A stretch of 64,000 bases of DNA from a virus. A model generated the notes under the pieces. That model ran no database searches. It was given only the letters and a program-made list of their open reading frames with translations, and was not told the origin of the DNA. This document shows positions 20,016 through 63,046 of the stretch, piece after piece. The position numbers and the translations under genes are program-made. The stretch lies in IMG/VR virus record IMGVR_UViG_3300023196_003770, positions 1 to 64,000 of that record. The stretch is one strand, 5' to 3'. Position 1 is the stretch's first letter, and each line of letters starts with the position of its first letter.

Positions 20016-22376
20016 TTAATAATCCATCTTCAAGCGAAAACAAAACTTATCGCCACTTCTCTTAAGGACCGGTTGAGCTATAGATGTTCTACCAATAACA
20101 TTTAGATTATCATCATGTAATAACACATTTGATATAAAGACGTATTTCTTATCATTTTCATTTGCAAAATCATCTATATCAATATTGCCATTTTGGAACT
20201 GAGCATAGCTGGAACTAATTTCCTGCATGGGTCTTGCATACCCATTTACCGATAAAACGTGAATATTCTGAATGCCCTGGAATTCACATTGAAACTGATT
20301 AAGACCAAAGAAATAAAGCTGTGGGACTTTAAGAAGGATTATACCTTCGTTATAAAATATATTGCCTATAGAAGACCATGTTGCATGTTCACCAGAAGCA
20401 TCAGCACGATATAGATTACCATAACCATCATCTTTAATGGTCATTGATATACTACCGCTTATAGAACCGCTTATGTTTGCATCTGTTAATACGAACGTTC
20501 CTGGTTTAATACATAAACCATAATACATATTACTGATATCAAAGAATACAACCTGATTACTTGTATTATCACGTGTTCTATCGAAGATTGCATAATCTGA
20601 AGCGGGTGTAACTCCACTCTTCCAGAAGTTATCTGGATTATTTGCTCCTTGTAAAGCTACTGATATTGAATTGTCTTGATCAGCAGATTGTAAAACCTGA
20701 CCTGGGAATGAACCAGTTATCATATCTCTTAAAGAGATTGCTCCTGGCACATAATTTCCTAAATCATCAACAAATTTACTTCCGCTTAAATTGCTTAATA
20801 AACCATAGTTTGGAAAGAACTTCCCATTATCATTTGGAAGTATCGAATATAATCTCTTTACATTTGAACCGGTTGAATATAATAAAGTATTTGCTTCTGT
20901 TGCTGTTGATAACGTTGTTGTGATAGTAGAAGCTGTTAAATTCATTAATCTCGGGTAACGTCCGGTAATAAAATCTCTTACGTAATTCTCGAGATTTATA
21001 TAGTGTCCACCACAACCAAAAGCCATTTTGATATCAAACGGGTCTATAGTTGTTCCATCCTTTGCAATCAAAGGAGTTGTTAATACGCCTCCGTCATCAT
21101 TTACTACTTGTCTATATGGACTTTCTTGTGTAAAGAAAGGCGGAAGATAAAACTTAAGATCACTTGTTATTGATTTTACACCAAAACTATCAAGAGCTTT
21201 AATTTCATCGGTATTGAGATATGAATTATATAACTTTAATTCATGAACTTCTGCTTTAAGAGGATAACTGAAAGCATATGATATAGGCGCATCTTGTGCT
21301 GTGCTATTTTTCAACTCTTCTATTCCATATTTCAATGATGGGTTTGTAGAAAAAAACCATGATGTTTCATTGGATGGACCAGCGTTAGTTCCTTGAAAAT
21401 AATTGCCAACGCACAAGATATCTTGATCAAGAGATGCTGAACCAACTGTTAAGCTATTTGTTATAGCAAAGTTACCTTTATTAATTGAATTAACAATAAA
21501 TGAACCGGAACCAAAATTATAATTTGGACCTCCCCAACGTATTGTTACATGATGCCATTTATTAACTTCTAATGCATTATCATTTGATAAGAACGTATAT
21601 GCAGATGATGTTAAGGCTAAGTCTGGAGCTATATCTGCGGCTCCTGAGAGCTGTAGCAATAATTTAAAACCACTAATCTTTCCATTGATATCTCGTGCCG
21701 ATCCTGAACATAAGCTTATAGCAAATGCGCTGGACATATGCATTAAAGTCCCAGGCTTGTATATAACTTCATTTGTATATACAGGCTTTGGCTTTATCCA
21801 AAAATCAAAAGAGAATGCATTGGAATAGCTATAATCTCTATAATTGCTATTCAAAGAGTTAAGTGGGTTTGGATATAATAAGACACTTCCAGTAGGGGTA
21901 TTGCTGGAAGAGAAAAAATTTAAACTATGGTAGTTTGTATAGTTGTAATGAGCAGTAGGATACGAAGTTCTGTAATACGGCATCAATGTATTGATCGTAA
22001 CAAGCTTACGCATCGTATTCGAATTAAATCGAAATGGAGGTTCAAATCTAATAATTTCTAAACGTTGATATTGTTTAGGAGATACCGGTGTTTCTTGAAC
22101 CCCCGTTAAATAAGCAACAATTTCCGGAACAATATTTGTAGACCCAGTTGATTTAGTTATCGCATTTAGACGTAATTGATTTAAATCATAATCATTGAAA
22201 TATGATTTACTATAGTAATTTAATGGATAAGGTTCTTTCTGAAATGTAGAACGTCTTGCAAAAAGATAAAGAGAACCAGTTACACCATCTGTTGAAGAAC
22301 TGACATAAGTTCTTCTTGGATTGGTTTCAATTGTAAACGTTTCGAAATCATCTGGTGTAACTCGTTGTATTGACAT
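20016..22376 (-). CDS. virion baseplate/tail protein with LamG domain and tail-collar-like C-terminus
   Basis: FSFDFWIKP...WHHVTI...VHELKLYN..L...EI LamG pattern; C-terminal LHDDNLNVIG....QPVLK.....F.LKMDY. Confidence 0.75.
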   Translation of the reverse strand: MSIQRVTPDDFETFTIETNPRRTYVSSSTDGVTGSLYLFARRSTFQKEPYPLNYYSKSYFNDYDLNQLRLNAITKSTGSTNIVPEIVAYLTGVQETPVSPKQYQRLEIIRFEPPFRFNSNTMRKLVTINTLMPYYRTSYPTAHYNYTNYHSLNFFSSSNTPTGSVLLYPNPLNSLNSNYRDYSYSNAFSFDFWIKPKPVYTNEVIYKPGTLMHMSSAFAISLCSGSARDINGKISGFKLLLQLSGAADIAPDLALTSSAYTFLSNDNALEVNKWHHVTIRWGGPNYNFGSGSFIVNSINKGNFAITNSLTVGSASLDQDILCVGNYFQGTNAGPSNETSWFFSTNPSLKYGIEELKNSTAQDAPISYAFSYPLKAEVHELKLYNSYLNTDEIKALDSFGVKSITSDLKFYLPPFFTQESPYRQVVNDDGGVLTTPLIAKDGTTIDPFDIKMAFGCGGHYINLENYVRDFITGRYPRLMNLTASTITTTLSTATEANTLLYSTGSNVKRLYSILPNDNGKFFPNYGLLSNLSGSKFVDDLGNYVPGAISLRDMITGSFPGQVLQSADQDNSISVALQGANNPDNFWKSGVTPASDYAIFDRTRDNTSNQVVFFDISNMYYGLCIKPGTFVLTDANISGSISGSISMTIKDDGYGNLYRADASGEHATWSSIGNIFYNEGIILLKVPQLYFFGLNQFQCEFQGIQNIHVLSVNGYARPMQEISSSYAQFQNGNIDIDDFANENDKKYVFISNVLLHDDNLNVIGRTSIAQPVLKRSGDKFCFRLKMDY

Positions 22377-22398
22377 AACATACGTTCAATCTGAAATT

Positions 22399-23589
22399 TC
22401 AGAAATCAAGTCTTACTTTGAAGGTTAAATCTCTTTCAGAATCTTTAAGAACCGGTCTAGACACCTTAGCTACGCCCAATAGATTGTTGTTGTCATCGTA
22501 TAGACCAATAGAGGAAACAAATGTAAATGCTTCTTGTTCTAATTCTTGTCCTTCATCAATAACTACGATTCTATTGTTAGAATCTGTAAAGGTTGGATTC
22601 GAAGAATAATTGAATGAGTCTGGATTTGCACGACAGAAAAATATTGTGCTGTTAATGTTTGTTACGTTCTGAAATGTCATTGCAGTTTCATTCGAAGCTG
22701 TAAATCTTGTTGAACATAAATGATCAAGAAAATCATCTATAGAAGCAGATGCTCCAAACATACAAAGTGATGCCGACATATTTGGATTAATTCCGCTTGT
22801 ATATTCTACAGAACTGATGGCTCCGGAGATAAAAGTTCTTTGATCAAAACTTCTTGACATATCAAGAACCATGATGCCACGGTCAAGAAACAATAAACCA
22901 TATGGATTAGTTGTTACAGCAGAATCAACCAATACAGCAGCCTCGCCACCAACGGTATAATATTTGTTTGTGCTTGAATTGATATCGGTAAGAATAGAAG
23001 AACTGACGCCTGGAATAACAATATTATTTGTTACATCAGCCGGAGTAGGAACTAAAACACCATTGCCAGAAGCAGACATAAAAAATCTTATTGCGGTTGT
23101 TTCTCTTTTGACTTTATCACGTGCGAATAGTCTCTTGAAACATACGAAAACTGCTTCTTTGATTTCAATTGTATTGTTTGATGCTGGAGCTGTTGCTGTA
23201 AATGTTGCAGTTTCATCACCAAGAAGTTCACGTGCAAATAAACGATAGATATCTATTTTCTCTCTCATCATAACAGAGTTAGCTGGAAATATGTATTTGC
23301 CGTTTGTATCTATCGTAGGGGACCAAGCAGATACTATAGCTGAACTTGTAGCATAACCATATGTTATATCAAAAACTGGATTGGCAGTTTGTAAAGTAAA
23401 GTCTTGATCAAATACTGTTTGAAATAAAGAAGACGTTACTCCCGGTCCAAGACCTCCAGTTACGAACACTTGATATTCTCTTCTGGTTGCAGAAGAAGAA
23501 ACATCAGAACCAATGATATCAACCAATTGGTTTAAATAAGAAGTTGTTGACTTAATATCTTGATTGTCAAACGCTTGAAAAGTAGCCAT
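22399..23589 (-). CDS. virion structural protein with tail-collar-like C-terminus
   Basis: C-terminal IGLYDDNNNLLGVAKVSRPVLK...LTFKVRLDF, paralogous to the end of the 20016 ORF. Confidence 0.75.
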   Translation of the reverse strand: MATFQAFDNQDIKSTTSYLNQLVDIIGSDVSSSATRREYQVFVTGGLGPGVTSSLFQTVFDQDFTLQTANPVFDITYGYATSSAIVSAWSPTIDTNGKYIFPANSVMMREKIDIYRLFARELLGDETATFTATAPASNNTIEIKEAVFVCFKRLFARDKVKRETTAIRFFMSASGNGVLVPTPADVTNNIVIPGVSSSILTDINSSTNKYYTVGGEAAVLVDSAVTTNPYGLLFLDRGIMVLDMSRSFDQRTFISGAISSVEYTSGINPNMSASLCMFGASASIDDFLDHLCSTRFTASNETAMTFQNVTNINSTIFFCRANPDSFNYSSNPTFTDSNNRIVVIDEGQELEQEAFTFVSSIGLYDDNNNLLGVAKVSRPVLKDSERDLTFKVRLDF

Positions 23590-23604
23590 TATACCTTGTC
23601 CTTA

Positions 23605-24330: not shown

Positions 24331-24333
24331 ACC

Positions 24334-26265
24334 TTATTTTATTAAACTAAGCTTGTCGGTGGTTAAGCTTCCTATATTATTATTTATTGAAGTAGTTGAA
24401 TTTTTTGATATGTTATTTATTCCAGGCTTATTACTTTGATTTCTCGTATCTTGTAATGCAATATCAATAGTTTGTTCGCTTTGAAGGTCAATATTAATCA
24501 TTTGTAGTTTATAGATAGAATTTGAATCTGTCTTCAATAATTGTAAATCTGTCGGTGGGCTACCCTGACTCGTGACTTTTAAGTATTCCGGATTGAAGAT
24601 TATTTGTAACTTTTTAGAACCACTTGTTCTTATCGAGTCAACAAATGCATCTTTTTGTAAGAAAAAGTTTGGATATGCTTTTGGAGCGCCTTGCTTAGAT
24701 ATTGATCTTTTAATTAATTTATTTTGATTTCTATCAAAAGATATCTGTAATTGAACCGAATAATTTGAACTGTTTCCATGAGCATCTATAGAAGCCAGCG
24801 CATATATAGCGTTACTTTCCTTCGTAAACTCATCATCTCTATAGTATTTTATTGGTAATGCTGTGCCATTTGCGCTACGTAAATTATCAACTAAGACTTG
24901 ATCTATAAAATTTTCAGACATCTCTATTGCAGACAAAGGAGTTTGACTATCATTGAAATCATAAACTTTATATAATTGAAATGGTTCATTGACTCCATTT
25001 CTTTTGAATACTTGAACATATTTTATGTCACGTTGTGGATTCACTGGTAGATTCCATGATAAAAAGGGGATATTGTTTTGATAATCCCATGTGATATCAA
25101 AATCTACAGGTGGCGGCGGAGGAATATTTTCTTTGCACGTTATATAGACTTCAGGACTTCTTTGAGATGCCACCAGATAAGTTGTCATACCAAATTCAAT
25201 ACTATCGTCAGTAATGTTATAAGTTGGTATTTCTAATAAGAATACTGACTTGACTGTGTAGCCATATTGTGTTCCATATTTGACATTATAATCAATACAC
25301 TCAGAAACGTTAATAGATTCAACTATAACTGGAGGTTTAGTTATAGGTTGTCCGGTTGTTGGATATTCTGTTTTTTCTACGATGTAGCCAATTAGTTGAA
25401 AATCTGTTTTATATACTCCTGGTTGAACTTCTGTATTGTAGCTGATATAATTTGGCATATTCATTTGGTAATCAACAGCATCAATTATAGAGTTTGATCT
25501 CGCTACAATAGCATTTTCCTGCACTGTGTTTGCCAAAGGCAAAGTGGCATAGGTTTCATTACCATATATGTTGTCTGGTTGTTGAACCGAGGATCTTAGT
25601 AGAGTGGCAATTCTTTTATTATTGAAAGAAGCCTTAAGCTTAACGTTTCTAATTTGATTGATTATACTTTCAGTTATAGCCGCTTTGTTTTCATTGTTGA
25701 TATATTTAACACCATTTTTTTCCAAATCAATAAAAGATTCAGCTAAGAAGCTTGATTCAATTTGATTAGAAGTATTTGCATTTAATATTTTTACTATATC
25801 AAGTTGAGATAGACTATTAGTATCTATAGATTGTTGAACTATAATGGAGTTAATTGCTTTATTAATAGCATATAGAACTTTTCCATCTGCTCCATTATCT
25901 TTGAATAAGATGCTTGTAAAAAAATCTGATGATAGCGTTTCTTCATCCAATATTTTATCTAAGTTATTTTTTATTGATACGGTGCCAATCCAATCGGGTC
26001 TGTTTCCAAGTATTATTGGATTCCATTTGAGATTAACGTAACGTGGAACAAATCGTTCAATTTTTCTTTTTAACTGTTGTCTCAACGTAATGTTTTGATA
26101 ATTTTGAAGATCATTTTGTAGACGATTTGGGGTTGCATTAAGAGGATTTTCATTCTTATATTCATCAGGCAAATAAAAATTGTATACAAACGAAGCCTCT
26201 GGAATTTGTATTTCTCCGGGAGCATCTATGATTACAGCTTTGTTAGATGGATATGATTTCGTCAT
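24334..26265 (-). CDS. virion structural protein with FN3/Ig-like domains
   Basis: IGYIVEK...DYNVKYG.QYGY.VKSV; PPPP.DF...LSW..P; Y.LASIDAHG.SSNYS. Confidence 0.7.
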   Translation of the reverse strand: MTKSYPSNKAVIIDAPGEIQIPEASFVYNFYLPDEYKNENPLNATPNRLQNDLQNYQNITLRQQLKRKIERFVPRYVNLKWNPIILGNRPDWIGTVSIKNNLDKILDEETLSSDFFTSILFKDNGADGKVLYAINKAINSIIVQQSIDTNSLSQLDIVKILNANTSNQIESSFLAESFIDLEKNGVKYINNENKAAITESIINQIRNVKLKASFNNKRIATLLRSSVQQPDNIYGNETYATLPLANTVQENAIVARSNSIIDAVDYQMNMPNYISYNTEVQPGVYKTDFQLIGYIVEKTEYPTTGQPITKPPVIVESINVSECIDYNVKYGTQYGYTVKSVFLLEIPTYNITDDSIEFGMTTYLVASQRSPEVYITCKENIPPPPPVDFDITWDYQNNIPFLSWNLPVNPQRDIKYVQVFKRNGVNEPFQLYKVYDFNDSQTPLSAIEMSENFIDQVLVDNLRSANGTALPIKYYRDDEFTKESNAIYALASIDAHGNSSNYSVQLQISFDRNQNKLIKRSISKQGAPKAYPNFFLQKDAFVDSIRTSGSKKLQIIFNPEYLKVTSQGSPPTDLQLLKTDSNSIYKLQMINIDLQSEQTIDIALQDTRNQSNKPGINNISKNSTTSINNNIGSLTTDKLSLIK

Positions 26266-26275
26266 GTAGTATCCT

Positions 26276-30628: not shown

Positions 30629-30646
30629 AGGCTTTTATAAGTAGTA

Positions 30647-33103: not shown

Positions 33104-33110
33104 ATTAATC

Positions 33111-34082
33111 CTATAGCTCCCAAACCAAAGTAAACATATTGACGAAAGTTGGGGTATTGTTGCTGTCTATAAATACTTTACCAACGAAAAATACATGATG
33201 GGCATTTCCGTTTCGGTCTGGAGGAAATATGCCATAGTCAACAACATCAAGCTTCTTCATCCCATCTGAATATACTTCAAAGAATTGACATAACAAGTTA
33301 TTTTGACGTGAGGTTTCCGTAAAATCAATATCGTAGCTATAACCAGTCTGTTGAGATGCGCTCAGTTCCGTAGCTAAATCTTGATAAGAAACATATGGAG
33401 CTTGATTTAAGTTTTTATATGATCCAATCACTAAAGAATTTGTTTTGCCAATTCTTGGCTTGTTAATTGGTGGCAGATATTGAAAGTTTGGTACGTGGGA
33501 AAGTCTCTTGTCAAAGAATATACTTTCTACTTTATCAATATCAATTTCCTGTATGCCAGCAGATGATATTGGATTGGTATCATTAATCTTATATGTTAAT
33601 TGTTTTTTGTCGAGAATGAATTCATTAAAGTTTATGTCTAACGGATCTGGGCTGGCTAATATTGAAAGCTTCTTAAAGTTTTCTAAAGATGAACTTAGCA
33701 GAGTTGTTGCTAATGAGGCAAACTGTGATCCACTTATAAACGGTGCTTCAAATCTTGTTGAACCGGTAAGAACAGGAAATACTTTTCCAGCTCTTACTCT
33801 ATAGCCGCTATTACCATCAACAAAGTTAGCTAAGAGATTGCCACTATCATCTGTTTCAAATACAATGACATCTTGCGGCAGATTACCGGCTTCAAATGTC
33901 AATCTTGAGGTGAAGTCTGGTCCGCCTGATACAAGCGTGTCTAAAGCGTATATGGCGCTTGCATCACTGAAAGATACGTATTCTACATTCATCTTTCCTG
34001 TGGCAGCTTGGCGTCTGCCTTCATTGGTGATGATGGTATCTAAAACCCTGCTGCGATTGTCAAGTATACCAGCCATTTTCAA
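33111..34082 (-). CDS. virion structural protein with tail-collar-like N-terminus
   Basis: GILD...RVLDTIITNEGRRQ...M.VEYVSFSD parallels the N-terminus of the 23605 ORF. Confidence 0.7.
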   Translation of the reverse strand: MKMAGILDNRSRVLDTIITNEGRRQAATGKMNVEYVSFSDASAIYALDTLVSGGPDFTSRLTFEAGNLPQDVIVFETDDSGNLLANFVDGNSGYRVRAGKVFPVLTGSTRFEAPFISGSQFASLATTLLSSSLENFKKLSILASPDPLDINFNEFILDKKQLTYKINDTNPISSAGIQEIDIDKVESIFFDKRLSHVPNFQYLPPINKPRIGKTNSLVIGSYKNLNQAPYVSYQDLATELSASQQTGYSYDIDFTETSRQNNLLCQFFEVYSDGMKKLDVVDYGIFPPDRNGNAHHVFFVGKVFIDSNNTPTFVNMFTLVWEL

Positions 34083-37069: not shown

Positions 37070-37070
37070 A

Positions 37071-39872
37071 TTATTCTATGACCTCGTGTATAGTTTCTGA
37101 TGATAGAAGTTGATTTGTTCCGTCATTATATTCTTTATTTGCTCTTATATAAGAACCGTAAAGAACTAATTTAGCTGGAAGGTTTTCTGATACGGTTTCA
37201 TGTATTGTAAAGGTGCTCTCGACACCAGCGGCAGAAGTATTGATATAAGCTACTGGAAATTGAGATACTGGCATTTGAAACCCTAATATTAGTTTATCTT
37301 TTGGATTAAGAATATATGGATTTATTTTAAGCTTTTCTGCTGGCCATTGTCTGTCGATACTTGATATAGCAGTTAGTTGCGGCTGAAGGTTATATGAAGC
37401 AAACAGATCATTTGTTAACCCACGTGTTGTTGGTTGTAACATTGAAAGTCCATTTCGGTATCCATCATAGCCAAAAATTTGTTTTCTAGTGGTTCCAGCA
37501 AGATTATTATAATATTGTAACAAATTAATGCCAATTTGATTTGGTCCTAAAGTTGGGGATCCCATACTCATGGAAAAAACCGGTCTTACGTTAACATATT
37601 GCACGCCCAAATAATTTGTTACTTGACTTCGAACTACAAAGTCATTTGAAGTAATTGGTAAAAGATCTTGAAGATTTGAAGTTAGAAATCCTAAATCTTT
37701 AAGTGGAGTAAGGCTGGCAACAGAGAATAATTGAGAAAATCCAACTATATCTCTTACTGTATCGACACGTGTAGTTACATTTAAATCAAAATCATCTTTT
37801 GTAAGAGAATAATCAATTGGTACTGACGCACTAACTGGCGTGCTCCCAACGTCATTGAATGTAAAATTATAATTAAAGTTCTGATTATAACGTTGATTTA
37901 ATATAAAAAACGTAGCGCATGAAGCTGAAATAGGTTTTACTGTTGAAATGACAGTCGGATCAATATCGGACAATTCATAACTTAAATTACCCATTTGCAA
38001 CACTGCCTTTTCCAAAACAAAAGGTTCAGTTATGTAGTTTGATATATCTAAAGTTTGAGATCCGGTTGCATGAAATTTTGGATGAAATGGAAAACCAAAA
38101 CCATTTCCAGTATATGCAATATTCGATACGTCACCTTTTGTTACGGCGATGGGCAATAACGAGTTTGGATATCCAATTGGATAATATCCGTAATAATCTT
38201 CCAAGGTTGTTATAACATTTAATGGCAATCCAACTCCGATTGGTTCCCAAACGTTTGTTTGAAAGTTATAGTAAGCCATTGGAGAGCTGTATGTAGTTTC
38301 GAAACCGTTTCCTAACATGCCGGTGTTAACAGACAACTCTGTATTTGTTGCAACCGGTATAGGTATTTCAATCTTATTTTTGCTCCAAAGTGGAGAACTA
38401 AATCCTTCACCAACATGAGCAATTGCGCTACCAGTTGCAAAAAAAGGATTTTGAACTACGGCTCCCTTAGCATCAGCAGCAAACTGCTGTTGATCATGGA
38501 ATGGTTGCATCTCCTGACCTGGAGAGAAATGAACCCATTCCTGGTTGTCTCCAACCCCTTTAACAATAGAACCAGTAACTAACATACCATCTCTGTTAAA
38601 GGTGGTCATGTATTCTCCAGCATCTACTGGATATGGATCATTGTCAAGGTCGATAGAGGTTCCGGCTATCACACGTCGTTTCTTATTCCATGGAACTTGA
38701 GAATAATATAGCTCTGCAATTTCTGTAACGGTTAATACTCTATCAAATACTGACATTTCTCCAATAGAACCGGTTAAGTCTGCATTAAAACTATACAAAA
38801 ATCCTGTTCCAAGTCCTAATTCTACTGGAGTACCAGTATTGTATCCGTTAAATCCGCCGCCCTGAGATGTTATTGCATTAGGATTAACGTATTCTCCATT
38901 CACATACACTTTAATAGAATTAATGTCAAATACCGGATCAGTATATGTGCCTCCTCCATTGTAGGTAAAAGCAAAATGATACCAGTTTCCAACTAAATCT
39001 GAAACTGGATCTGTATCTAACTGAATGGAGTCTGCCGAATAACTAGTACTTATAAATGCGACTTGAAATTTAAGTTCTCCAGCCCCATCTTCAACTGCTG
39101 CGGCGTAATAATCAACATTCTCTACGTTCCATGGATTTGCTCTGCAAGGTCCAGTTACTAGAACATGAGAGTTGATTGTATTCTGATTTGAGCTGCTATA
39201 ATAAAACCATCCAGCTACAGTAAAGTTATCAAATTTTCCTTTTGGATACGGTCCAGTAAAATTGGAAAACTCAAATAAAGATTTGTTAGAATCTAAATTT
39301 TGTGCTAGCAACGGATAAGTTGAAGTGACAAGGTTTACCGGATCTCCCTCTAAAGTTGCATATGCACTAAAACTTGGTTTAAAATCGTATGATTTATTTG
39401 GTTGTATATATGGAAATTCAATATTTGTAGTTATTCCTTGGCTTGGAGTTGCTTTATCAATATCTACATTATAAGCTTTGCCATTATGTGGAAAAGATTG
39501 ACTAACGCCAATAAAATTAAAATTAGTTAAAGGATCGTCAGCCAGATTAAAATCTAAATATGGGAATGTTCCTTCTTTAAGAGAACCAGATATTTCCGAT
39601 TCAAAAGTAATATTACCTGCCGCTGAACCGGTTGGTCCTAATCTTTGCATGGTCCAATAGCCAACCATATTATCTTGCCATGAAGTTCCATTTGAACGAT
39701 GACCGAATACAACCGTCTGAACGTCGTTATAACCTACTTTATAGTTACCAGTACGTCCGTCCAGGGAGAAGCGCACGTTGGTTGGATAAGAGCCTGTAAG
39801 AGCATCCTGACCACGTAATTGTAGCTTTGGAGAAATAACTCTTATTCTTGTCCTTTTCTCTTGCCTGCTCAT
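37071..39872 (-). CDS. virion protein with LamG domain
   Basis: MVGYW; FTVAGWF; WYHFAFTYNG; KVYVNG; GSIGEMSVFDRVLT..EI.ELY. Confidence 0.78.
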   Translation of the reverse strand: MSRQEKRTRIRVISPKLQLRGQDALTGSYPTNVRFSLDGRTGNYKVGYNDVQTVVFGHRSNGTSWQDNMVGYWTMQRLGPTGSAAGNITFESEISGSLKEGTFPYLDFNLADDPLTNFNFIGVSQSFPHNGKAYNVDIDKATPSQGITTNIEFPYIQPNKSYDFKPSFSAYATLEGDPVNLVTSTYPLLAQNLDSNKSLFEFSNFTGPYPKGKFDNFTVAGWFYYSSSNQNTINSHVLVTGPCRANPWNVENVDYYAAAVEDGAGELKFQVAFISTSYSADSIQLDTDPVSDLVGNWYHFAFTYNGGGTYTDPVFDINSIKVYVNGEYVNPNAITSQGGGFNGYNTGTPVELGLGTGFLYSFNADLTGSIGEMSVFDRVLTVTEIAELYYSQVPWNKKRRVIAGTSIDLDNDPYPVDAGEYMTTFNRDGMLVTGSIVKGVGDNQEWVHFSPGQEMQPFHDQQQFAADAKGAVVQNPFFATGSAIAHVGEGFSSPLWSKNKIEIPIPVATNTELSVNTGMLGNGFETTYSSPMAYYNFQTNVWEPIGVGLPLNVITTLEDYYGYYPIGYPNSLLPIAVTKGDVSNIAYTGNGFGFPFHPKFHATGSQTLDISNYITEPFVLEKAVLQMGNLSYELSDIDPTVISTVKPISASCATFFILNQRYNQNFNYNFTFNDVGSTPVSASVPIDYSLTKDDFDLNVTTRVDTVRDIVGFSQLFSVASLTPLKDLGFLTSNLQDLLPITSNDFVVRSQVTNYLGVQYVNVRPVFSMSMGSPTLGPNQIGINLLQYYNNLAGTTRKQIFGYDGYRNGLSMLQPTTRGLTNDLFASYNLQPQLTAISSIDRQWPAEKLKINPYILNPKDKLILGFQMPVSQFPVAYINTSAAGVESTFTIHETVSENLPAKLVLYGSYIRANKEYNDGTNQLLSSETIHEVIE

Positions 39873-40801: not shown

Positions 40802-40843
40802 ATGTCACCTGGTCATAGTATAGATATATTGCAGATCAAAATT

Positions 40844-43800
40844 TTAATATTTAGCAAAAGTTGCCACAAACATTTGTAATAATATTCTATCTCTAAGTCC
40901 GGTGCGATTGCTATCTCCAAGATATAACTCACTAAATAGATATTCAAACTTTGGACGTTCTAACATATGGCTTTCAATAACAAAGTTAGTTCCAAAAAAC
41001 TTTGTCTTTTTAGGAATTAGTTGAGAAACAAATGTTCCTATATTATTGTCAAACCACTTATAAAACTCAAAGAATTGTTTTAAGTTTAGTTTGTCAGTTA
41101 ATCTATTGAAATAAACGTTTCTTAAATTTTCAAGACCAGGATAATCTGGTGAAAATACCAACTCTGGAGCGCCAAGTATATTGTCAAGTTCATCCAACGT
41201 TGCAAATATGTTCACTATATCTTGATTCAATGATTCAACTACGCTGAAGTCTATCGTAAACTTTGTGCTATCAGTAGGTTGTTCATTTCTTGGTATTTCA
41301 TATACAGGAGCGACTTGTGCCCACGGTGTAGACTGAACGTTCTCGTATTGCTCAAATGAACGGATTCGAACTTTGTTTGTAGTGCTTGCTTCATCAAATT
41401 TTGGAGATATAAAGCTGTAATGATATCTTTCCGGGTCAATAACTTGACGACTTATCGGAAATAACGTTCCAGATAGATGTAAGTTATTTTGTGAAAAGTC
41501 AAATATATTGATCTCTCCGCTTACGTTAGATTGAGTAACGATCTGATCTGTATTTGCATCAATACGTAGCCGCTCCCAAGAACTGCTTTTGTTTGTTATA
41601 AAATTGAAATTTGTAAGAGGATCTTGAACGCCTATAGATTTAAAGTTTCTAACGTGTTCAGGATATTCTTCCTCGGTTATATTTTTGCTCCAAAACCTTA
41701 TTTGAGAAACATCGCCTTTAAAACTTGTTTCTCTTGCTATAGCTGGTGCAATAGCAGGATCATTTAGAAATTTGCTTATACTTGTATTGATAGAACTGGA
41801 ACCAATAACAAAGAAAGAACCACTACTGTTTGTTGTAGCAGATTTCTCATTCCATATATTAATACCGCCACCATCGGTGTCATTAAACCAAGAACTTGTT
41901 ACGTAATTGTCATATATTTCGCCATATATGTTTTTGACAACCCTCAAGAAATAAGAACTTGATATTACAGAATTAAGTCCATCATCATTTCTTTGTTTTC
42001 CAAAAGAAATATACCATTTATCTCCGTCAAATATATCTACACCAGACATATAAAGTCTCATGTATGGAGCAGCTACATTGTCATTTGGACGAACAAAAAG
42101 GGTAATAGAACTCGTTGTGGTAGAGGTAAAGTCTAAGCTTCCGGAATAGGCTATTAGATTTGCTATTAATCCGCCGCTGGCAGCTAAACTGCTTCCTGTA
42201 GTTATAAATCTAACTAAGCTTTGATTTGGATCATAGGTTAGATTGGTTGGAAATTTGTATGTTGCTTCATAAGTCCATGAACCTGAAGTAAAAAGACCGT
42301 CGTTAGCAGTTCCAGTAATTTCTGGATATCCAGGTTCTATTCTGCTTGCTGAAAGATACGGGCTTGTTATAAGACCGCCAGAAACAAAATTTAAAACCGA
42401 TGCTATTTCGTTACGTTTATCTCTTACGAAACCAAGATTTTGTTTTGTAGGTCCACCATATTCTCTTATGCGGAAATTTTGATCTGGATCAATACCAGTT
42501 GATCTAATGAATGTTTTTACAGCGTGAACTGTTCCTTTTGAAGTAACTATTTCTCTTAAGTTAATCAATATTCTGCGCCATATTTGGTTCTGTATGTATT
42601 GCAAAGAATATTGATTAACCCCTGGTGTATCTTGGATATTTTGAGCATTTATAAATTGAGCTACGCTGGCACCAGTAAACATAGGAGGTAATTCAATACC
42701 TTGATTTCTTGCTAATTGCTGCAAAAACTGATCAGGCACAGTATCAATATTATTATAATCAACAAATTGATTATCGGCAAACGATTGCGTATATAGCTTT
42801 ATTTCATCAAAAAATTTAGCCCAAGTATACAGGAACAAAAGAAATACTTGTGTATCTCCTAATCTTGTTGAACGTGGATCAGTTCCGGAAGTTAAAGAAT
42901 TGACAATCTCTCCTTCTTCCGTCTCTAAAGCACTTTCAACTTGACCTTCTAACAAATAATGTCTTGGAATTAACTTGGTTATAATGTTTGGATTCTCATT
43001 GTCATATATACTTGCGCTTGTATATAATGAAGTTCTATAGTTGTAAACTTGTATTTGATTTCCAAATAGGATAGGGCACAATTCTAATTGTTCATATGTA
43101 ACCGGAGATGGACCAGCTATGGAAGAAGTTGGCACCTGTCTAACATATGAACTGCGATCACCACTTAAGTTTCCATGTAAGCTATTTGAAGATGCATCAA
43201 TAACAATTGGCGCATTACTTCCAGATGGTTCATTAAACTTATAATATAGCTTTAAGTTTGAATCTGCAAATATTGACTTTTGATAATTGTTATATATATC
43301 TTCTTTAGAACGAACTGAATGCCATATTCTTAAATCATCTAAAGCGCCGGACAAAGTGTTTGTTGGGGTATAACCGACTGTAGATAAGTCGCTGCCAGAA
43401 CCAATATATAAATTGCTTGTAGTGTCTATTGTTTCAAATTCAACAGACATAGAACTTGAAGCATAATATCGTCCATTCAAATATGCATATATGCCATTAT
43501 ATCCTGGCGTTCTGTCCCAAACCCAAGCTATGTGGTTCCATTGTCCTTTTGTCAAAGAAACGCTTATTTGTTCATAAGCAGAGCCTGAAGATATATAAAA
43601 AGTGTTTGTTGTTGATGTGGTAGAGACTGTCGAGTTTAGTCCACTTAAAAATCCAAAAGAACCACTATGTTTGTCTAATACGACTTGATCGCTATTTGCT
43701 TGACTTGGAACATATAACCAATACTCAATCGTCATAGGATTAAGTTTTGGATTGATTATATTTTTACCATCAGTAGTTTTTGATAAATTAACATATGCAG

Positions 43801-44275
43801 CGCCCGCTTGATCTACTACTGTTACATAAGTTCCATAAGCTATAGATGATGGTGCTACTGTTCCTGAGAAAAACAAATATCCTTTGTTCTTAGGATAATT
43901 GTCATATATATATTTTTCGTGTCCGGTTAGCTTATCAAGATATATTTCAGTCTCTTTTTGCGTCCCATCAAAAGGAAAGCCATTTTGTATCTTATCAAAA
44001 GCAACATTGACTTTTACTTGTGCAGAGTTGAAAAAAGTGTGATTGGAAAAATCTGACCAATCAACGTTTAACTGTTGAGTTGAACGTAAACCAGTTTCCG
44101 GATCATTATAACGAAATGAAGATGTATTATCGATGCTGGTGTCCGATATTACTTTTGCTTCATATAAATTGAAGCTTACACTTTCATGAGCTTGATCTTG
44201 AATGTTTCTTACTATTATTGGTCTAAAAAGAGCTGGTGAATTTCTTTGTAGATTTCTTGTGTTGTTAATAGGCAT
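40844..44275 (-). CDS. baseplate wedge gp7/P2-I-like protein with LamG domains
   Basis: VPDQFLQQLA..G and IWRRILINL..I..SKGT...V baseplate motifs; LamG TIEYW...WNHIAW...LDDLRIW. Confidence 0.75.
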   Translation of the reverse strand: MPINNTRNLQRNSPALFRPIIVRNIQDQAHESVSFNLYEAKVISDTSIDNTSSFRYNDPETGLRSTQQLNVDWSDFSNHTFFNSAQVKVNVAFDKIQNGFPFDGTQKETEIYLDKLTGHEKYIYDNYPKNKGYLFFSGTVAPSSIAYGTYVTVVDQAGAAYVNLSKTTDGKNIINPKLNPMTIEYWLYVPSQANSDQVVLDKHSGSFGFLSGLNSTVSTTSTTNTFYISSGSAYEQISVSLTKGQWNHIAWVWDRTPGYNGIYAYLNGRYYASSSMSVEFETIDTTSNLYIGSGSDLSTVGYTPTNTLSGALDDLRIWHSVRSKEDIYNNYQKSIFADSNLKLYYKFNEPSGSNAPIVIDASSNSLHGNLSGDRSSYVRQVPTSSIAGPSPVTYEQLELCPILFGNQIQVYNYRTSLYTSASIYDNENPNIITKLIPRHYLLEGQVESALETEEGEIVNSLTSGTDPRSTRLGDTQVFLLFLYTWAKFFDEIKLYTQSFADNQFVDYNNIDTVPDQFLQQLARNQGIELPPMFTGASVAQFINAQNIQDTPGVNQYSLQYIQNQIWRRILINLREIVTSKGTVHAVKTFIRSTGIDPDQNFRIREYGGPTKQNLGFVRDKRNEIASVLNFVSGGLITSPYLSASRIEPGYPEITGTANDGLFTSGSWTYEATYKFPTNLTYDPNQSLVRFITTGSSLAASGGLIANLIAYSGSLDFTSTTTSSITLFVRPNDNVAAPYMRLYMSGVDIFDGDKWYISFGKQRNDDGLNSVISSSYFLRVVKNIYGEIYDNYVTSSWFNDTDGGGINIWNEKSATTNSSGSFFVIGSSSINTSISKFLNDPAIAPAIARETSFKGDVSQIRFWSKNITEEEYPEHVRNFKSIGVQDPLTNFNFITNKSSSWERLRIDANTDQIVTQSNVSGEINIFDFSQNNLHLSGTLFPISRQVIDPERYHYSFISPKFDEASTTNKVRIRSFEQYENVQSTPWAQVAPVYEIPRNEQPTDSTKFTIDFSVVESLNQDIVNIFATLDELDNILGAPELVFSPDYPGLENLRNVYFNRLTDKLNLKQFFEFYKWFDNNIGTFVSQLIPKKTKFFGTNFVIESHMLERPKFEYLFSELYLGDSNRTGLRDRILLQMFVATFAKY

Positions 44276-45879
44276 TATGGCATCACCTTAAATCGGAATC
44301 CGTTATTGCTAATCAAAAATTCCTTGCCACCATAAGTAATCATCAACTCAATTTCATAAACTTCTCCTTGTGCGAAGTCTTGCATCCAAATATCAAAATA
44401 CATTCCCTCGGCATCATATGAACAAAGAGTAGCTGAATTGTCAAATGGAATAATAACCTTACGTGAATAAGCATTAATTAATCTCCATTTTATATTATCT
44501 AAGATAACGCTCTTTGGTTGAAGAGCTAATCTACTTGCAGATTGTTCCGTATTGTAATCTAACACAAAGATACGTAATCTTGCCTGCTCAGAGGCTTTGT
44601 ATTGTTGTTTAAGATTGGTTATGTTGACTACCCAGTTCTCCTCTTCAACGTTGCTTGGCGAGCCTTGTGGGAGCTTGTAGAGGGTCTTACCGGATGCATA
44701 CGTAAGAGTACCATCTAAACTGGTCCATGCATATCTAAACTCTTGACTTGTAGATCCGGTTAGGAAATTTTTTAGAGCCGTATTCTCTACAGTATTGAAG
44801 TTAACACTAGCTGAATATATACCGGTCTGTGGAACGCTACCAATTAGATACTGACTACCTAGGAAACTCTGAGTTATAGCATAAAGACTGCGAGTTAAAT
44901 GATTGATACTTGCACTATGCGATATGGAGAAGCTGGAAGTTGTATATGTGATATATTTTGCGCCATATAGATTTAGTAATAGGCTATTGGCTCCGGTAAT
45001 CTCTGTGCTACCAGAGAAGAAGCTTTGATAACCACCATTAATACGATTATAAGCAAACAAGCTTTGAGATACGTTAAAAAGAGTGTTCCCTAAATCATCT
45101 CCTATTTGATCATTATATTTGATAATAAGTTGTGGATGAAGGTCAGGATTTTTGGCTTGTTTAGAGCCAAATCTTTTTACGAAACGTGTTATGTTATCAT
45201 TTTCTTGTGCATCGATGAATGATAATCTCCAGCCATAATTTGGGATTTGACCTGCTATAGCCGCACTAACAAGAGTAGTAACATCTATATATAGATTTTC
45301 ATCGCCACGAGCAAACTGCTGAGTTACTGTCAAATCTTGCGATCCACCACCGAGATTACCAGAAACTATTATATCAATATTTGGCGCACTAAGGGAACCG
45401 CTTTGTGCTGCTCCTTCCAATGTCCAAGCGATTGGAGTACCGGTTATAATAGAAGCAGTAAGAAAGTTTGCTGTATCTAAATCACGGAATGCCACGACAT
45501 CAAAGCCCCTACCTTCATCCCAGCTTTTAGAGAGCGCCATAAGCCTTATAGAGAAGTTTGAAGGGGTAGTTTGACCACCATATACATCCTTCAAATTAAG
45601 AAAGGCTTTAAAGCTCGTGTCGTCAATATTGAGAAATGATGCAGTTATTTGTTGTAAAGGTTCATAATCAAATTGAAGAAGAAAACGACTTAATTCAATT
45701 ACGCCACTTACTATAGTTGAACCACTATATACAGTAGTTTCATCATAAAGTTTGAATAGATCCAACGTTCCAGCTTGTCCTACGTTAGACGTAGTAGAAG
45801 GAGAACCTGCAATTATTTTATTTGTGATATATGTATCTTTGCTTGCTGATAATAATCTATACATAATATCACCTATCAA
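44275..45879 (-). CDS. baseplate-associated structural protein (likely start MYRLL)
   Basis: ASKDTYI...SRFLLQFD...SWDEG.G...IDVT..V...NYG...PQLIIKY pattern; located next to the gp6-like gene. Confidence 0.65.
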   Translation of the reverse strand: MIGDIMYRLLSASKDTYITNKIIAGSPSTTSNVGQAGTLDLFKLYDETTVYSGSTIVSGVIELSRFLLQFDYEPLQQITASFLNIDDTSFKAFLNLKDVYGGQTTPSNFSIRLMALSKSWDEGRGFDVVAFRDLDTANFLTASIITGTPIAWTLEGAAQSGSLSAPNIDIIVSGNLGGGSQDLTVTQQFARGDENLYIDVTTLVSAAIAGQIPNYGWRLSFIDAQENDNITRFVKRFGSKQAKNPDLHPQLIIKYNDQIGDDLGNTLFNVSQSLFAYNRINGGYQSFFSGSTEITGANSLLLNLYGAKYITYTTSSFSISHSASINHLTRSLYAITQSFLGSQYLIGSVPQTGIYSASVNFNTVENTALKNFLTGSTSQEFRYAWTSLDGTLTYASGKTLYKLPQGSPSNVEEENWVVNITNLKQQYKASEQARLRIFVLDYNTEQSASRLALQPKSVILDNIKWRLINAYSRKVIIPFDNSATLCSYDAEGMYFDIWMQDFAQGEVYEIELMITYGGKEFLISNNGFRFKVMP

Positions 45880-52931: not shown

Positions 52932-53310
52932 CTAACATTTCTCCTCGGAGTATACGCTCTCTCATTATTCTCTCTTGCAATTCACGAATATTAGGTTCTT
53001 CTTCAACAACCATGTTATATTTTTGTTTGCTACGATCAACAAATTTAAGAGCCACACGATTAACAGCCATTTTATTTTTCTTAATCTCTGCCATGGCTTC
53101 ATGAACAACCATTTGAACTTCTTTGCTATCAAAGAATAATTTCATTTCTAAAATTTTATCTAATGCCTGTTCGGTATCCTCTAATGCCTCTACAGCATCA
53201 GAAAAATCATCTTCAATAATCATGATAATCCGTGCAAAACGAATTAGATAAAATAATGATGAAATTAGTAGAAATAATAATACCAGAGTTATTAATCCAA
53301 ATATAATCAT
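52903..53310 (-). CDS. membrane-anchored hypothetical protein
   Basis: N-terminal hydrophobic helix followed by a charged helical region. Confidence 0.7.
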   Translation of the reverse strand: MIIFGLITLVLLFLLISSLFYLIRFARIIMIIEDDFSDAVEALEDTEQALDKILEMKLFFDSKEVQMVVHEAMAEIKKNKMAVNRVALKFVDRSKQKYNMVVEEEPNIRELQERIMRERILRGEMLDENTQDFNR

Positions 53311-59086: not shown

Positions 59087-59088
59087 AA

Positions 59089-59214: not shown

Positions 59215-59236
59215 GTTAATACCTCCTGTAATCCTC

Positions 59237-63045: not shown

Positions 63046-63046
63046 A

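What the first reader, a model, noticed from the sequence alone, without database searches (positions are those of the whole stretch)
20016..45879. [ST]-[GA]-S tripeptide enrichment in a subset of virion proteins: candidate glycosylation sequon
Seen (hand counts, approximate): SGS/TGS/SAS/TAS occurs about 12 times in the 786-aa protein, 8 in the 996-aa, 9 in the 933-aa, 10 in the 1143-aa and 10 in the 534-aa protein. It occurs only about 0-1 times in the 1450-, 818- and 643-aa neighbours (also S/T-rich) and in the gp6- and gp5-like proteins. The motifs are scattered, often after a hydrophobic or aromatic residue, and are not tandem repeats. The genome carries at least five glycosyltransferases and sugar-synthesis genes a few kb away. 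Inference: a phage-encoded, sequon-directed O-glycosylation system that coats exposed baseplate/LamG proteins.
Basis: partly seen in the sequence, partly recalled or inferred. Interest (0 to 1): 0.8.

Follow-up and report, generated by a model that had tools for sequence, protein, structure and literature searches.

The report
Ser/Thr-Gly-Ser tag on phage tail proteins
The outer tail, baseplate and fibre proteins of this large uncultured aquatic phage and hundreds of relatives carry the tripeptide Ser/Thr-Gly-Ser about five times too often, and this excess goes together with one phage sugar-transferase gene, so it may mark where a phage-made sugar coat attaches, though no chemistry shows this yet.

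Summary
Observation confirmed. The hand counts are exact (12, 8, 9, 10, 10). In an unbiased scan of all tripeptides, SGS (22 vs 3.3) and TGS (15 vs 2.65) rank first and second. SAS is weaker and TAS is not enriched in this window. Codons vary, so the signal is at protein level.

The excess recurs in the same protein families in 138 related loci (pooled 4.9-6.6x). These include two cultured phages: Flavobacterium phage immuto and Microcystis phage Mel-JY01. It is absent from T4 tail proteins (7 vs 9.0).

It marks sheath outer regions, distal baseplate proteins and fibres. It does not mark capsid, gp6-, gp25- or gp5-like proteins. Specificity is sharp: only S/T before G, and S after.

One glycosyltransferase, GT4-A (53307-54503), has an ortholog in every near-complete genome that shows the excess. 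The nested 484-kb phage LR756508 lacks GT4-A and has no enriched protein.

A sequon for phage-encoded cytoplasmic O-glycosylation is the best reading (about 0.5), but the evidence is correlative and rests on one loss event. A lineage-specific structural hairpin motif remains a serious rival.

This scan has noted the same motif before on other DNA: 182 notes in at least 166 genomes.

The parts
44275..45879 (-). 534-aa baseplate protein directly after the gp6-like gene; a chain of beta-sandwich domains; motif-rich
   Evidence: 10 [ST][GA]S vs 1.49. 49 orthologs average 5.2 [ST]GS vs 0.88. AF2 pLDDT 80, all-beta. Foldseek matches are macroglobulin/CBM-like sandwiches.
40844..44275 (-). 1143-aa LamG-containing baseplate protein; motif-rich
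   Evidence: 10 vs 2.33. Laminin_G_3 E 3.6e-18. 45 orthologs average 11.1 [ST]GS vs 1.70. SGS is invariant at residue 664 in 46 of 46 sequences.
37071..39872 (-). 933-aa LamG-containing protein; motif-rich
   Evidence: 9 vs 1.73. Laminin_G_3 E 1.8e-12. 14 orthologs average 7.4 vs 1.55.
34079..37069 (-). 996-aa virion-module protein; motif-rich
   Evidence: 8 vs 2.90, p 0.012. 6 orthologs average 6.8 [ST]GS vs 1.71.
33111..34082 (-). 323-aa protein; mildly motif-rich
   Evidence: 3 vs 0.55. 21 orthologs show a ratio of 5.0.
22399..23589 (-). 396-aa protein sharing its last ~100 residues with the 786-aa protein; mildly enriched (SAS/TAS type)
   Evidence: 4 vs 1.12. BLASTP 29% identity over 101 residues to the C-terminus of the 786-aa protein.
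20016..22376 (-). 786-aa LamG-like distal protein; the most motif-rich in the window
   Evidence: 12 vs 1.81, z 7.9. Laminin_G_3 E 2.8e-5, below Pfam's cut-off. The ortholog in the complete relative G003 has 9 [ST]GS vs 1.48.
24334..33103 (-). Three large Ser/Thr-rich neighbours (643, 1450 and 818 aa) that lack the motif; internal contrast, unexplained
   Evidence: 1, 1 and 0 sites vs 0.62, 1.78 and 0.93 expected. The 818-aa family has ratio 0.40 in 20 orthologs. No Pfam family passing cut-off, no PHROG and no PDB match.
45876..47717 (-). gp6-like baseplate wedge protein (Baseplate_J); motif-free; used as the phylogenetic marker
   Evidence: 0 vs 0.66. PF04865 E 1e-6. 48 orthologs show ratio 0.33.
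53307..54503 (-). GT4-A, a soluble GT4 glycosyltransferase; the candidate reader of the motif
   Evidence: Glycos_transf_1 E 4.4e-9 and GT4-conflict E 3e-8. Orthologs in 12 of 15 and 11 of 20 related records, including 4 of 4 that are >=90% complete, and in immuto and Mel-JY01. None in LR756508.
54500..55660 (-).
   Evidence: Glycos_transf_1 E 2.3e-6. Homologs in 5 of 5 genomes tested, including LR756508. Weak PDB match to chlorovirus glycosyltransferase B736L (E 2.9e-4).
57129..63985 (-). Nucleotide-sugar and transferase genes of the island: Gmd, epimerase/reductase, DegT aminotransferase, GT47-like, methyltransferase, GT2, GT8-like
   Evidence: Pfam hits. The island runs on to about 68.3 kb of the contig. 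None of 19 ORFs from 51528 to 69909 has a 19-residue window with Kyte-Doolittle mean >=1.6.

Best explanation
[S/T]-G-S (more weakly [S/T]-A-S) is a short recognition tag, a sequon, displayed on outward-facing parts of the tail: sheath outer regions, distal baseplate proteins and fibres. Non-acidic, often hydrophobic residues sit on either side of it.

Proposed mechanism (inferred, not shown):
1. During late infection a soluble phage glycosyltransferase, most likely GT4-A (53307-54503), attaches a first sugar in the cytoplasm to a Ser/Thr hydroxyl of the tag. GT4-B may work with it.
2. The other soluble transferases of the adjacent, lineage-variable island extend that sugar. They use GDP-sugar derivatives made by Gmd, the epimerase and the DegT aminotransferase.
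3. The tail surface ends up sugar-coated. Likely uses are shielding against proteases, host surface traps or grazers, or tuning adsorption.

Shown here: the motif statistics, its specificity, its conservation and turnover, which proteins carry it, the absence of membrane proteins in the island, and the co-distribution with GT4-A.

Inferred: that the tag is modified at all, that the modification is a sugar, and which enzyme reads it.
For: (1) Sharp specificity. In 334 proteins (234,509 aa) from 72 representative loci, SGS is 1019 vs 198.6 and TGS is 707 vs 145.8. Among xGS only S (5.1x) and T (4.8x) exceed 1.5x. Among SGx, S is 5.1x, T 2.0x and A 1.7x. D at -1 is 0.1x; P, E and D at +1 are 0.2-0.3x. 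This is narrower than a generic tight turn would require.

(2) Not one fold. The five window proteins are not paralogs. The carriers include LamG proteins, a chain of beta-sandwich domains, a fibre with SHAEG repeats and two sheath paralogs.

(3) Outward-facing set only. In the complete relative G003 the enriched proteins are the distal baseplate module, both sheath paralogs and a fibre. In the sheaths all 13 sites lie at residues 114-776, outside the Pfam sheath core at 822-1009. The major capsid protein has 2 vs 1.19 and the gp6-like protein 0.

(4) Hairpin tips. 5 of 10 [ST]G[ST] sites in model blocks with pLDDT >=60 have the pattern strand-end S/T followed by a two-residue G-S turn.

(5) Conservation plus turnover. 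The 1143-aa family has 5.7 sites per protein at conserved columns, 2.5 at mid-frequency columns and 2.7 at rare columns, against 1.69 expected for the whole protein.

(6) Controls. T4 gp7-12, wac, gp18 and gp34-37 together have 7 vs 9.0. N-x-[ST] (50 vs 60.9) and D-[ST]-[AILVMT] (9 vs 16.0) are not enriched.

(7) Link to GT4-A.
- Orthologs are present in 4 of 4 IMG/VR genomes >=90% complete and in both cultured relatives that show the excess.
- LR756508 is nested in the enriched clade. None of its 484 ORFs has p<1e-3.
- Of 29 genes shared by G003 and immuto, LR756508 lacks only 3, one of them GT4-A. It keeps GT4-B, Gmd and the epimerase.
- At the 9 columns where >=30% of 26 relatives have [ST]GS, LR756508 reads NQD, SDK, gap, DED, KNG, NGD, KDP, DNE, RRV. 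The fold therefore does not need the tag, and the sites tolerate charged residues.

(8) The island has no membrane protein, which fits a soluble acceptor.

(9) DNA is an unlikely acceptor in immuto. Passages of PMC10516641 report three canonical nucleosides plus fdPreQ1 replacing dG.

(10) The hosts of the cultured relatives differ at phylum level (Flavobacterium, Microcystis). This favours a phage-encoded reader over a host-encoded one.
Against: - No chemistry: nothing shows that any of these proteins is modified.
- The link to GT4-A is largely shared ancestry. Only one independent contrast (LR756508) was found, and that lineage keeps a weak residual excess downstream of gp6 (6 vs 2.5, p 0.04).
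- One record that is 70% complete (G016, locus L169, ratio 7.3) shows no GT4-A. The gene may lie in the missing 30%, or this may be a counter-example.
- GT4-A and GT4-B match no characterised protein O-glycosyltransferase. Their best NCBIfam and PDB matches are weak, generic GT4 hits.
- Three large Ser/Thr-rich neighbours (643, 1450 and 818 aa) carry no motif, and I cannot say whether they are buried.
- Half of the well-modelled sites sit in a recurring hairpin geometry, which a structural reading also predicts.
- The 1143-aa model is poor outside two domains (mean pLDDT 57.7).
- The LR756508 alignment is at about 27% identity, so the column assignments are uncertain.
- The tree is a quick search rooted on a very long T4 branch.
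Confidence: 0.5

Rival explanations
1. Lineage-specific structural micro-motif. [S/T]-G-S is a favoured way to end one beta-strand and start the next (a two-residue G-S hairpin turn with a capping Ser/Thr). It was inherited and multiplied in the beta-rich outer tail proteins of this clade, and there is no modification. The glycan island would serve something else, such as host surface glycans.
For: 5 of 10 well-modelled [ST]G[ST] sites show exactly the strand / G-S turn / strand pattern. Several sites are positionally invariant, for example SGS in 46 of 46 at residue 664 of the 1143-aa family. All carriers are beta-rich. The flanks are hydrophobic, like strand residues. The motif is a trait of the whole lineage, as deep as about 25-30% identity of the marker proteins.
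Against: - From recalled turn statistics (not a call), tight turns accept N, D, T or G at these positions. Here only S/T-G-S is enriched, while SGN, SGD, NGS and DGS are about 1x.
- The motif occurs in unrelated folds.
- T4 tail proteins have none.
- The LR756508 ortholog replaces the sites with ordinary polar or charged turn residues.
- Lineage-specific sites exceed chance.
- Three beta-candidate Ser/Thr-rich neighbours lack it. The fn3 lead for the 818-aa protein is weak.
Confidence: 0.27
2. The tag is read by something other than a glycosyltransferase. Candidates are another modification (phosphorylation, acylation, nucleotidylation) or non-covalent binding by an assembly chaperone or a decoration protein. 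The co-occurrence with GT4-A would then be coincidental.
For: The sharp three-residue specificity and the conservation-plus-turnover pattern point to a reader but do not identify it. Two other genes shared by G003 and immuto are also missing from LR756508: a 207-aa phosphohydrolase-like protein and a 675-aa head-module protein.
Against: No kinase or acyltransferase was seen among the proteins scanned in the window. Of the three genes lost in LR756508, GT4-A is the only one with strong matches in both cultured relatives (E 3.8e-49 and 7.9e-49). It lies in a 15-kb soluble sugar island next to the tail genes.
Confidence: 0.18
3. Chance, or a composition or low-complexity artefact of Ser/Gly-rich proteins.
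For: The carriers are richer in S, T and G than their neighbours. Whole proteomes show a mild baseline excess even in LR756508 (112 vs 80.7).
Against: Within-protein shuffles keep composition, and 0 of 1000 reach the pooled count. SGS and TGS are the top 2 of all tripeptides. The order matters: SGT is 4 vs 2.6. The excess recurs in 138 loci.
Confidence: 0.02

Closest known systems
Mycobacteriophage virion glycosylation by phage-encoded glycosyltransferases (Freeman et al. 2023, Cell Host Microbe). The paper is not held; I know it from passages citing it in PMC12619734 and PMC12582341 and from recall.
   Same: Phage-encoded glycosyltransferases next to structural genes. The proposed target is the phage's own virion proteins, modified in the cytoplasm.
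   Different: As cited, the glycans there sit at the C-termini of capsid and tail-tube subunits. Here the capsid is not enriched. The candidate sites are scattered internal tripeptides on sheath, baseplate and fibres. A defined sequon and a 15-kb sugar island are involved. The hosts are Gram-negative or cyanobacterial. Nothing has been shown chemically.
GtfA/GtfB O-GlcNAc glycosylation of serine-rich repeat adhesins, and the SASSAS O-glucosylation motif of Lactobacillus buchneri S-layer protein (recalled, not from a call)
   Same: A pair of adjacent GT4-type genes. The targets are Ser flanked by small residues (S-A-S / S-G-S). The first sugar is added in the cytoplasm by soluble enzymes.
   Different: Those substrates are long tandem Ser-rich repeats that are later exported. 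Here the sites are isolated tripeptides in folded beta domains. GT4-A and GT4-B share only a 32-residue stretch and match no GtfA/GtfB model.
Bacterial autotransporter heptosyltransferases (Aah/TibC acting on AIDA-I/TibA; recalled)
   Same: A cytoplasmic enzyme decorates many Ser residues at a short structural motif on a beta-rich surface protein.
   Different: No such enzyme family matched the 10 island proteins scanned against NCBIfam. The substrates here are not 19-residue beta-helix repeats.
Chlorovirus and giant-virus capsid or fibril glycosylation by virus-encoded soluble enzymes (recalled). Chlorovirus NY-2A glycosyltransferase B736L is the best PDB match of GT4-B (3oy2, E 2.9e-4 over 63 residues).
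   Same: A virus-encoded, membrane-independent glycan pathway acting on the virus's own structural proteins, with atypical attachment motifs.
   Different: Those are eukaryotic viruses with other target proteins and other motifs. The sequence match is weak and generic.
Two-residue beta-hairpin turns with Gly at the first loop position (type II'-like; recalled from turn statistics)
   Same: Half of the well-modelled sites have this geometry.
   Different: The observed residue specificity is much narrower than the turn requires, and relatives form the same hairpins with other residues.

Membership tests
Mycobacteriophage-type virion glycosylation | Phage-encoded glycosyltransferases adjacent to virion structural genes | tested here: met
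   GT4-A and GT4-B lie at 53307-55660, about 1.8 kb upstream of the next virion-module ORFs and 7.4 kb from the 534-aa protein. The arrangement is conserved in relatives.
Mycobacteriophage-type virion glycosylation | Glycans on the C-termini of capsid and tail-tube subunits | tested here: not met
   The major capsid protein of the complete relative has 2 [ST]GS vs 1.19. Candidate sites are internal and lie on sheath, baseplate and fibres.
Mycobacteriophage-type virion glycosylation | Sugar chemically detected on virion proteins | not testable with these tools
   Needs virions. Cultured relatives exist.
Serine-rich-repeat adhesin glycosylation (GtfA/GtfB) | Substrate with long tandem Ser-rich dipeptide repeats | tested here: not met
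   The sites are scattered singles with irregular spacing.
Serine-rich-repeat adhesin glycosylation (GtfA/GtfB) | Enzymes belong to the GtfA/GtfB families | tested here: not met
   Only weak generic GT4 matches, far below the NCBIfam cut-offs. PDB best matches are MshA-like 7qsg and B736L 3oy2.
Autotransporter heptosyltransferase (BAHT) systems | A BAHT-family enzyme is encoded | tested here: not met
   No such family appears among the NCBIfam hits of the 10 island proteins. The rest of the genome was not scanned.
Bacteroidota general O-glycosylation | Sequon D-[ST]-[AILVMT] | tested here: not met
   9 vs 16.0 expected in the five proteins. D directly before the motif is depleted to 0.1x.
N-glycosylation (N-x-S/T sequon) | N-x-[ST] enriched in the targets | tested here: not met
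   50 vs 60.9.
Generic tight beta-turn motif | Gly at the turn with interchangeable polar neighbours (N, D, S, T, G) | tested here: not met
   Only S/T-G-S is enriched. SGN is 1.3x, SGD 0.8x, NGS 0.9x and DGS 1.1x.
Generic tight beta-turn motif | Sites lie at strand-turn-strand positions | tested here: inconclusive
   5 of 10 well-modelled sites do; the other 5 lie at strand edges, after a helix or within a strand. No coordinates were available for geometry or exposure.

The most novel reading that the evidence does not exclude
A sequon-directed, membrane-independent O-glycosylation system of phages. One conserved soluble GT4 enzyme reads [S/T]-G-S on folded or folding tail proteins. A fast-evolving island of soluble transferases and sugar-nucleotide enzymes builds a lineage-specific glycan on it. 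The result would be a sugar coat on the sheath, baseplate and fibres of a very large clade of aquatic myoviruses that infect hosts as far apart as Flavobacterium and Microcystis.
Probability: 0.45. Interest if true: 0.85.

Novelty: new variant of a known kind. Interest (0 to 1): 0.7.

Why it matters
If the tag is a sugar-attachment site, it would be the first defined sequon for virion glycosylation in phages. It would also extend virion glycosylation from actinobacteriophage capsids and tail tubes to the tails of an abundant group of freshwater and marine myoviruses.

It would explain why these phages carry large soluble glycan islands without flippases or polymerases. It would make phage glycosylation predictable from sequence. 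It would also give a short portable tag for glyco-engineering.

The hypothesis can be tested directly, because two cultured phages (vB_FspM_immuto_2-6A and Mel-JY01) show both the motif excess and the GT4-A gene.

If it is instead a structural motif, it is still an unusually strict, clade-wide sequence rule for outer tail proteins.

Tried and rejected
- DNA-level motif: rejected. The 57 sites use many codons.
- Paralogy of the five proteins: rejected. BLASTP finds only a shared ~100-residue C-terminus between the 786- and 396-aa proteins.
- Known sequons N-x-[ST] and D-[ST]-[AILVMT]: not enriched.
- PHROGs gave nothing for 10 proteins.
- tblastn of the 1143-aa protein against cultured phages found nothing. 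The gp6-like protein found 7 records.
- A profile search with the gp6 alignment returned only close relatives, because the best 80 of 560 were kept. I reached outgroups through L050 and LR756508 queries instead.
- Function of the motif-free 1450-, 818- and 643-aa neighbours: no PDB sequence match. The ESM Atlas gave nothing for the 1450-aa protein and only sub-0.9 fn3 leads for the 818-aa protein.
- Solvent exposure could not be computed, because structure prediction returns no coordinates (one search shows no model file). I used the DSSP strings instead.
- GT4-A versus GT4-B as recent duplicates: rejected. They share only a 32-residue nucleotide-sugar-binding stretch.
- DNA glycosylation as the role of the GT4 pair: made unlikely for immuto by passages of PMC10516641, not excluded for this phage.
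- Literature: searches listed no paper describing an [S/T]-G-S sequon or glycosylated phage tail proteins. The review PMC11139210 has 0 occurrences of 'phage'. PMC13419713 is held only as 1,865 characters with no 'glycan'.
- Whether this phage is a 'moraphage' (PMC12619734; passages only) was not settled.

Rows dropped:
- One search kept one hit per locus with >=60% coverage and 0.7-1.4x length.
- One search kept 138 of 211 loci (those with >=1500 aa downstream of gp6).
- reduced 140 gp6 sequences to 76 at 80% identity.
- One search used 72 loci, leaving out L151, L157, the window and T4.

Full report
WHAT IS IN THE WINDOW. The window is part of an 89,093-base IMG/VR virus record, estimated 24% complete. 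It therefore comes from a jumbo myovirus of roughly 300-370 kb. Nearly all genes are on the minus strand.

Pfam identifies the following:
- a T4-type terminase (9342-11078);
- a class II aminoacyl-tRNA synthetase (3898-5211);
- a gp25-like protein (47725-48192, weak hit);
- a gp6-like Baseplate_J protein (45876-47717);
- LamG domains in the 786-, 933- and 1143-aa proteins.

Upstream of the tail genes lies a sugar island with two GT4 enzymes (53307-54503 and 54500-55660), Gmd, an epimerase, a DegT aminotransferase, a GT47-like protein, a methyltransferase, a GT2 and a weak GT8-like protein. The island continues outside the window to about 68.3 kb, with a UDP-Glc/GDP-Man dehydrogenase and a GT2-like gene. 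It ends at a PD-(D/E)XK nuclease gene.

They survive 2000 within-protein shuffles each (z 3.0 to 7.9, weakest for the 996-aa protein at p 0.012). The named neighbours have 0-1 sites.

To avoid judging a motif that was picked after looking, I scored all tripeptides in the five proteins. SGS (22 vs 3.34, p 1.2e-11) and TGS (15 vs 2.65, p 1.4e-7) came first and second. SAS was 9 vs 2.41. TAS (3 vs 1.89) was not enriched. The best tripeptide in nine neighbouring proteins reached only p 9e-4.

Order matters: SGT is 4 vs 2.6. The 57 sites use varied codons. The five proteins are not detectable paralogs.

IT IS CONSERVED, DEEP AND WIDESPREAD. Fifty IMG/VR loci encode relatives of the 1143-aa protein. 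The same families keep a 4.0-6.5-fold excess:
- 1143 aa: 11.1 vs 1.70 in 45 orthologs;
- 534 aa: 5.2 vs 0.88 in 49;
- 933 aa: 7.4 vs 1.55 in 14;
- 996 aa: 6.8 vs 1.71 in 6;
- 323 aa: 1.8 vs 0.36 in 21.

The gp6-like, gp25-like and 818-aa families stay at or below expectation.

Some sites are fixed: SGS in 46 of 46 at residue 664, 42 of 46 at 293, and TGS/SGS in 40 of 46 at 693. Substitutions stay within [ST]-[GAS]-[STA]. Sites also turn over. In the 1143-aa family each protein has on average 5.7 sites at conserved columns, 2.5 at mid-frequency columns and 2.7 at rare columns. Only 1.69 are expected for the whole protein.

At 25% identity (L050) the 489-aa ortholog has 10 vs 0.86 and the next protein, of 2736 aa, has 28 vs 3.7.

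I used the gp6-like protein as marker. Of 211 loci, 138 have at least 1500 aa of ORFs downstream of gp6. Their pooled ratios are 4.9 (89 loci), 5.3 (45 loci) and 6.6 (4 loci).

Two cultured phages belong to this group:
- Microcystis phage Mel-JY01: 45 vs 6.3.

T4 is a clean negative. Its gp7-12, wac, gp18 and gp34-37 together have 7 vs 9.0.

WHICH PROTEINS CARRY IT. Outside the window, on the same contig, an 889-aa fibre-like protein with SHAEG repeats has 24 [ST]GS vs 4.5.

In the complete relative G003 (305,036 bp, terminal repeats) I scanned 308 ORFs.
- The enriched ones are the distal baseplate module, a 465-aa fibre (10 vs 3.0) and two tail-sheath paralogs (7 vs 1.16 and 6 vs 1.20).
- All 13 sheath sites lie at residues 114-776, outside the Pfam sheath core at 822-1009.
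- The major capsid protein (2 vs 1.19), the gp6-like protein and the non-structural genes are not enriched.

The immuto sheath (7 vs 1.28) and, more weakly, the Mel-JY01 sheath (4 vs 0.95) agree. The carrier set is therefore the outer tail surface, and it spans several folds.

SPECIFICITY. I pooled 334 proteins (234,509 aa) from 72 loci whose gp6 proteins are under 80% identical.
- SGS is 1019 vs 198.6 and TGS is 707 vs 145.8.
- Before G-S only S (5.1x) and T (4.8x) exceed 1.5x.
- After S-G, S is 5.1x, T 2.0x and A 1.7x.
- In the middle position G is 5.1x and A 2.6x.
- D at -1 falls to 0.1x. P, E, D and K at +1 fall to 0.2-0.3x. M, F, V, L and A are favoured at -1, and W, F, L and Y at +1.

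These ratios come from related sequences. The fold-changes are meaningful, but p-values would not be.

STRUCTURE. AlphaFold2 models the 534-aa protein (35-row alignment) as an all-beta chain of sandwich domains (pLDDT 80). Foldseek finds macroglobulin-like and carbohydrate-binding-module-like sandwiches.

The 1143-aa model is good only for the LamG domain and a second beta domain (mean pLDDT 57.7).

Ten [ST]G[ST] sites lie in blocks with pLDDT of at least 60. Five show a strand-end S/T followed by a two-residue G-S turn and a new strand. The rest lie at strand edges, after a helix or within a strand. SAS sites tend to lie inside strands or helices. Hairpin tips are normally exposed, but I could not compute exposure.

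THE LINK TO THE SUGAR GENES. None of the 19 island ORFs has a membrane-like segment. The island therefore has no flippase, polymerase or lipid-priming enzyme, which fits a soluble acceptor.

GT4-A orthologs occur in 12 of 15 and 11 of 20 related records. These include all four that are at least 90% complete (G003, G017, G018, G019). The records without an ortholog are 8-70% complete. Immuto (E 5e-55) and Mel-JY01 have GT4-A, next to GT4-B and a PD-(D/E)XK nuclease gene.

The informative case is the 484-kb uncultured phage LR756508.
- On a gp6 tree rooted with T4 it is sister to an 18-row enriched clade that contains immuto and Mel-JY01 (SH-aLRT 99 for the 19 rows). The other major clade of 55 rows is also enriched. 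Parsimony therefore says LR756508 lost the trait (quick search, long outgroup branch).
- None of its 484 ORFs reaches p<1e-3. The module after gp6 has 6 vs 2.5.
- It has no GT4-A by three searches. It keeps a full-length GT4-B (E 7e-62 to immuto's), Gmd and the epimerase.
- Of the 29 G003 proteins with an immuto homolog at E<=1e-8, only 3 lack any LR756508 hit, and GT4-A is one of them.
- Its 1400-aa baseplate protein is homologous to Mel-JY01's 1336-aa protein over 1136 residues. At the nine columns where at least 30% of 26 relatives carry [ST]GS, it reads NQD, SDK, gap, DED, KNG, NGD, KDP, DNE, RRV.

In that lineage the same positions are ordinary charged or polar loop residues.

AGAINST THE DNA RIVAL. 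Passages of PMC10516641 report that digested immuto DNA shows three canonical nucleosides plus 7-(formylamino)methyl-7-deazaguanine replacing dG. The conserved GT4 pair is therefore unlikely to glycosylate DNA in that phage. I saw passages only, and the supplements are closed.

WHAT REMAINS OPEN.
- No chemistry exists.
- The phyletic link is one joint loss on top of shared ancestry.
- G016 (70% complete) has a strong excess and no GT4-A was found in it.
- LR756508 keeps a weak residual excess.
- GT4-A resembles no characterised protein glycosyltransferase.
- The 643-, 1450- and 818-aa neighbours are unexplained.
- The hairpin geometry is what a structural motif would also show.

I put the glycosylation-sequon reading at about 0.5, a purely structural motif at about 0.27, another reader or modification at about 0.18, and artefact at about 0.02.

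COMPARISON WITH WHAT IS KNOWN. Virion glycosylation by phage-encoded enzymes is known for mycobacteriophages, at the C-termini of capsid and tail-tube subunits (as cited in PMC12619734; the primary paper is not held). The present case differs in targets, in having a defined tripeptide, in the size of the sugar island and in hosts.

It works most like cytoplasmic Ser-directed systems such as GtfA/GtfB on serine-rich adhesins or the autotransporter heptosyltransferases (both recalled). It fails their membership tests. Five literature searches listed no description of this motif.

EARLIER NOTES OF THIS SCAN. I consulted these after my main tests. They report the same motif on many other genomes, with the same cautious reading. 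None mentions LR756508, so the joint-loss contrast and the 3-of-29 gene profile appear to be new within the scan.

Noticed in passing
own contig beyond the window, G000 81480-84146 (-) = L054:6480-9146:-: An 889-aa fibre-like protein with SHAEG-type repeats carries 24 [ST]GS (4.5 expected) and 31 [ST][GA]S (6.8 expected). This is the densest carrier on the contig.
   Followed up: partly
G003 204828-207833 and 207874-210930 (L067:12828-15833:-, L067:15874-18930:-): The complete relative has two adjacent ~1000-aa tail-sheath paralogs, each with a large non-core region that carries all the motif sites. Two sheath genes in one phage is unusual.
   Followed up: partly
window 24334-33103 (-): Three large Ser/Thr-rich proteins (643, 1450 and 818 aa) inside the tail module have no motif and no family, PDB or usable Atlas match. 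Their role, and why they escape the motif, is unexplained.
   Followed up: partly
LR756508 305.4-306.7 kb and 320.0-322.0 kb (L248): This 484-kb phage keeps GT4-B, Gmd and the epimerase but has no GT4-A and no homolog of the other island transferases. GT4-B therefore probably has a role that does not need GT4-A or the motif.
   Followed up: partly
window 68932-69909 of the contig (L053:4932-5909:-); immuto 48008-48949; Mel-JY01 81375-82271: A PD-(D/E)XK nuclease gene borders the sugar island in all three phages. In immuto and Mel-JY01 it sits just upstream of GT4-B and GT4-A. In this contig it is at the far end of the island, so the GT4 pair has changed ends.
   Followed up: no
window 13868-17098 (-): A 1076-aa fusion of a calcineurin-like phosphoesterase with an SMC/Rad50-type ATPase, that is, SbcD and SbcC in one polypeptide.
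   Followed up: no
window 6309-6887 (-): A 192-aa protein with a legume-lectin-like domain (PF00139, E 7e-6, just under the Pfam cut-off), outside the virion module.
   Followed up: no
window 20016-22376 and 22399-23589 (-): The 786- and 396-aa proteins share their last ~100 residues (29% identity). This may be a common C-terminal attachment or receptor-binding module.
   Followed up: no
phage database: Beyond immuto and Mel-JY01, the only cultured-phage matches of GT4-A are weak ones (24-28% identity) to glycosyltransferases of about 60 Streptomyces phages with ~130-kb genomes.
   Followed up: no
whole window: The lineage may be the freshwater 'moraphages' of PMC12619734, which have four core glycosyltransferases, a sigma factor and a Lys-tRNA-ligase VOG. 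I read passages only and did not test membership.
   Followed up: no
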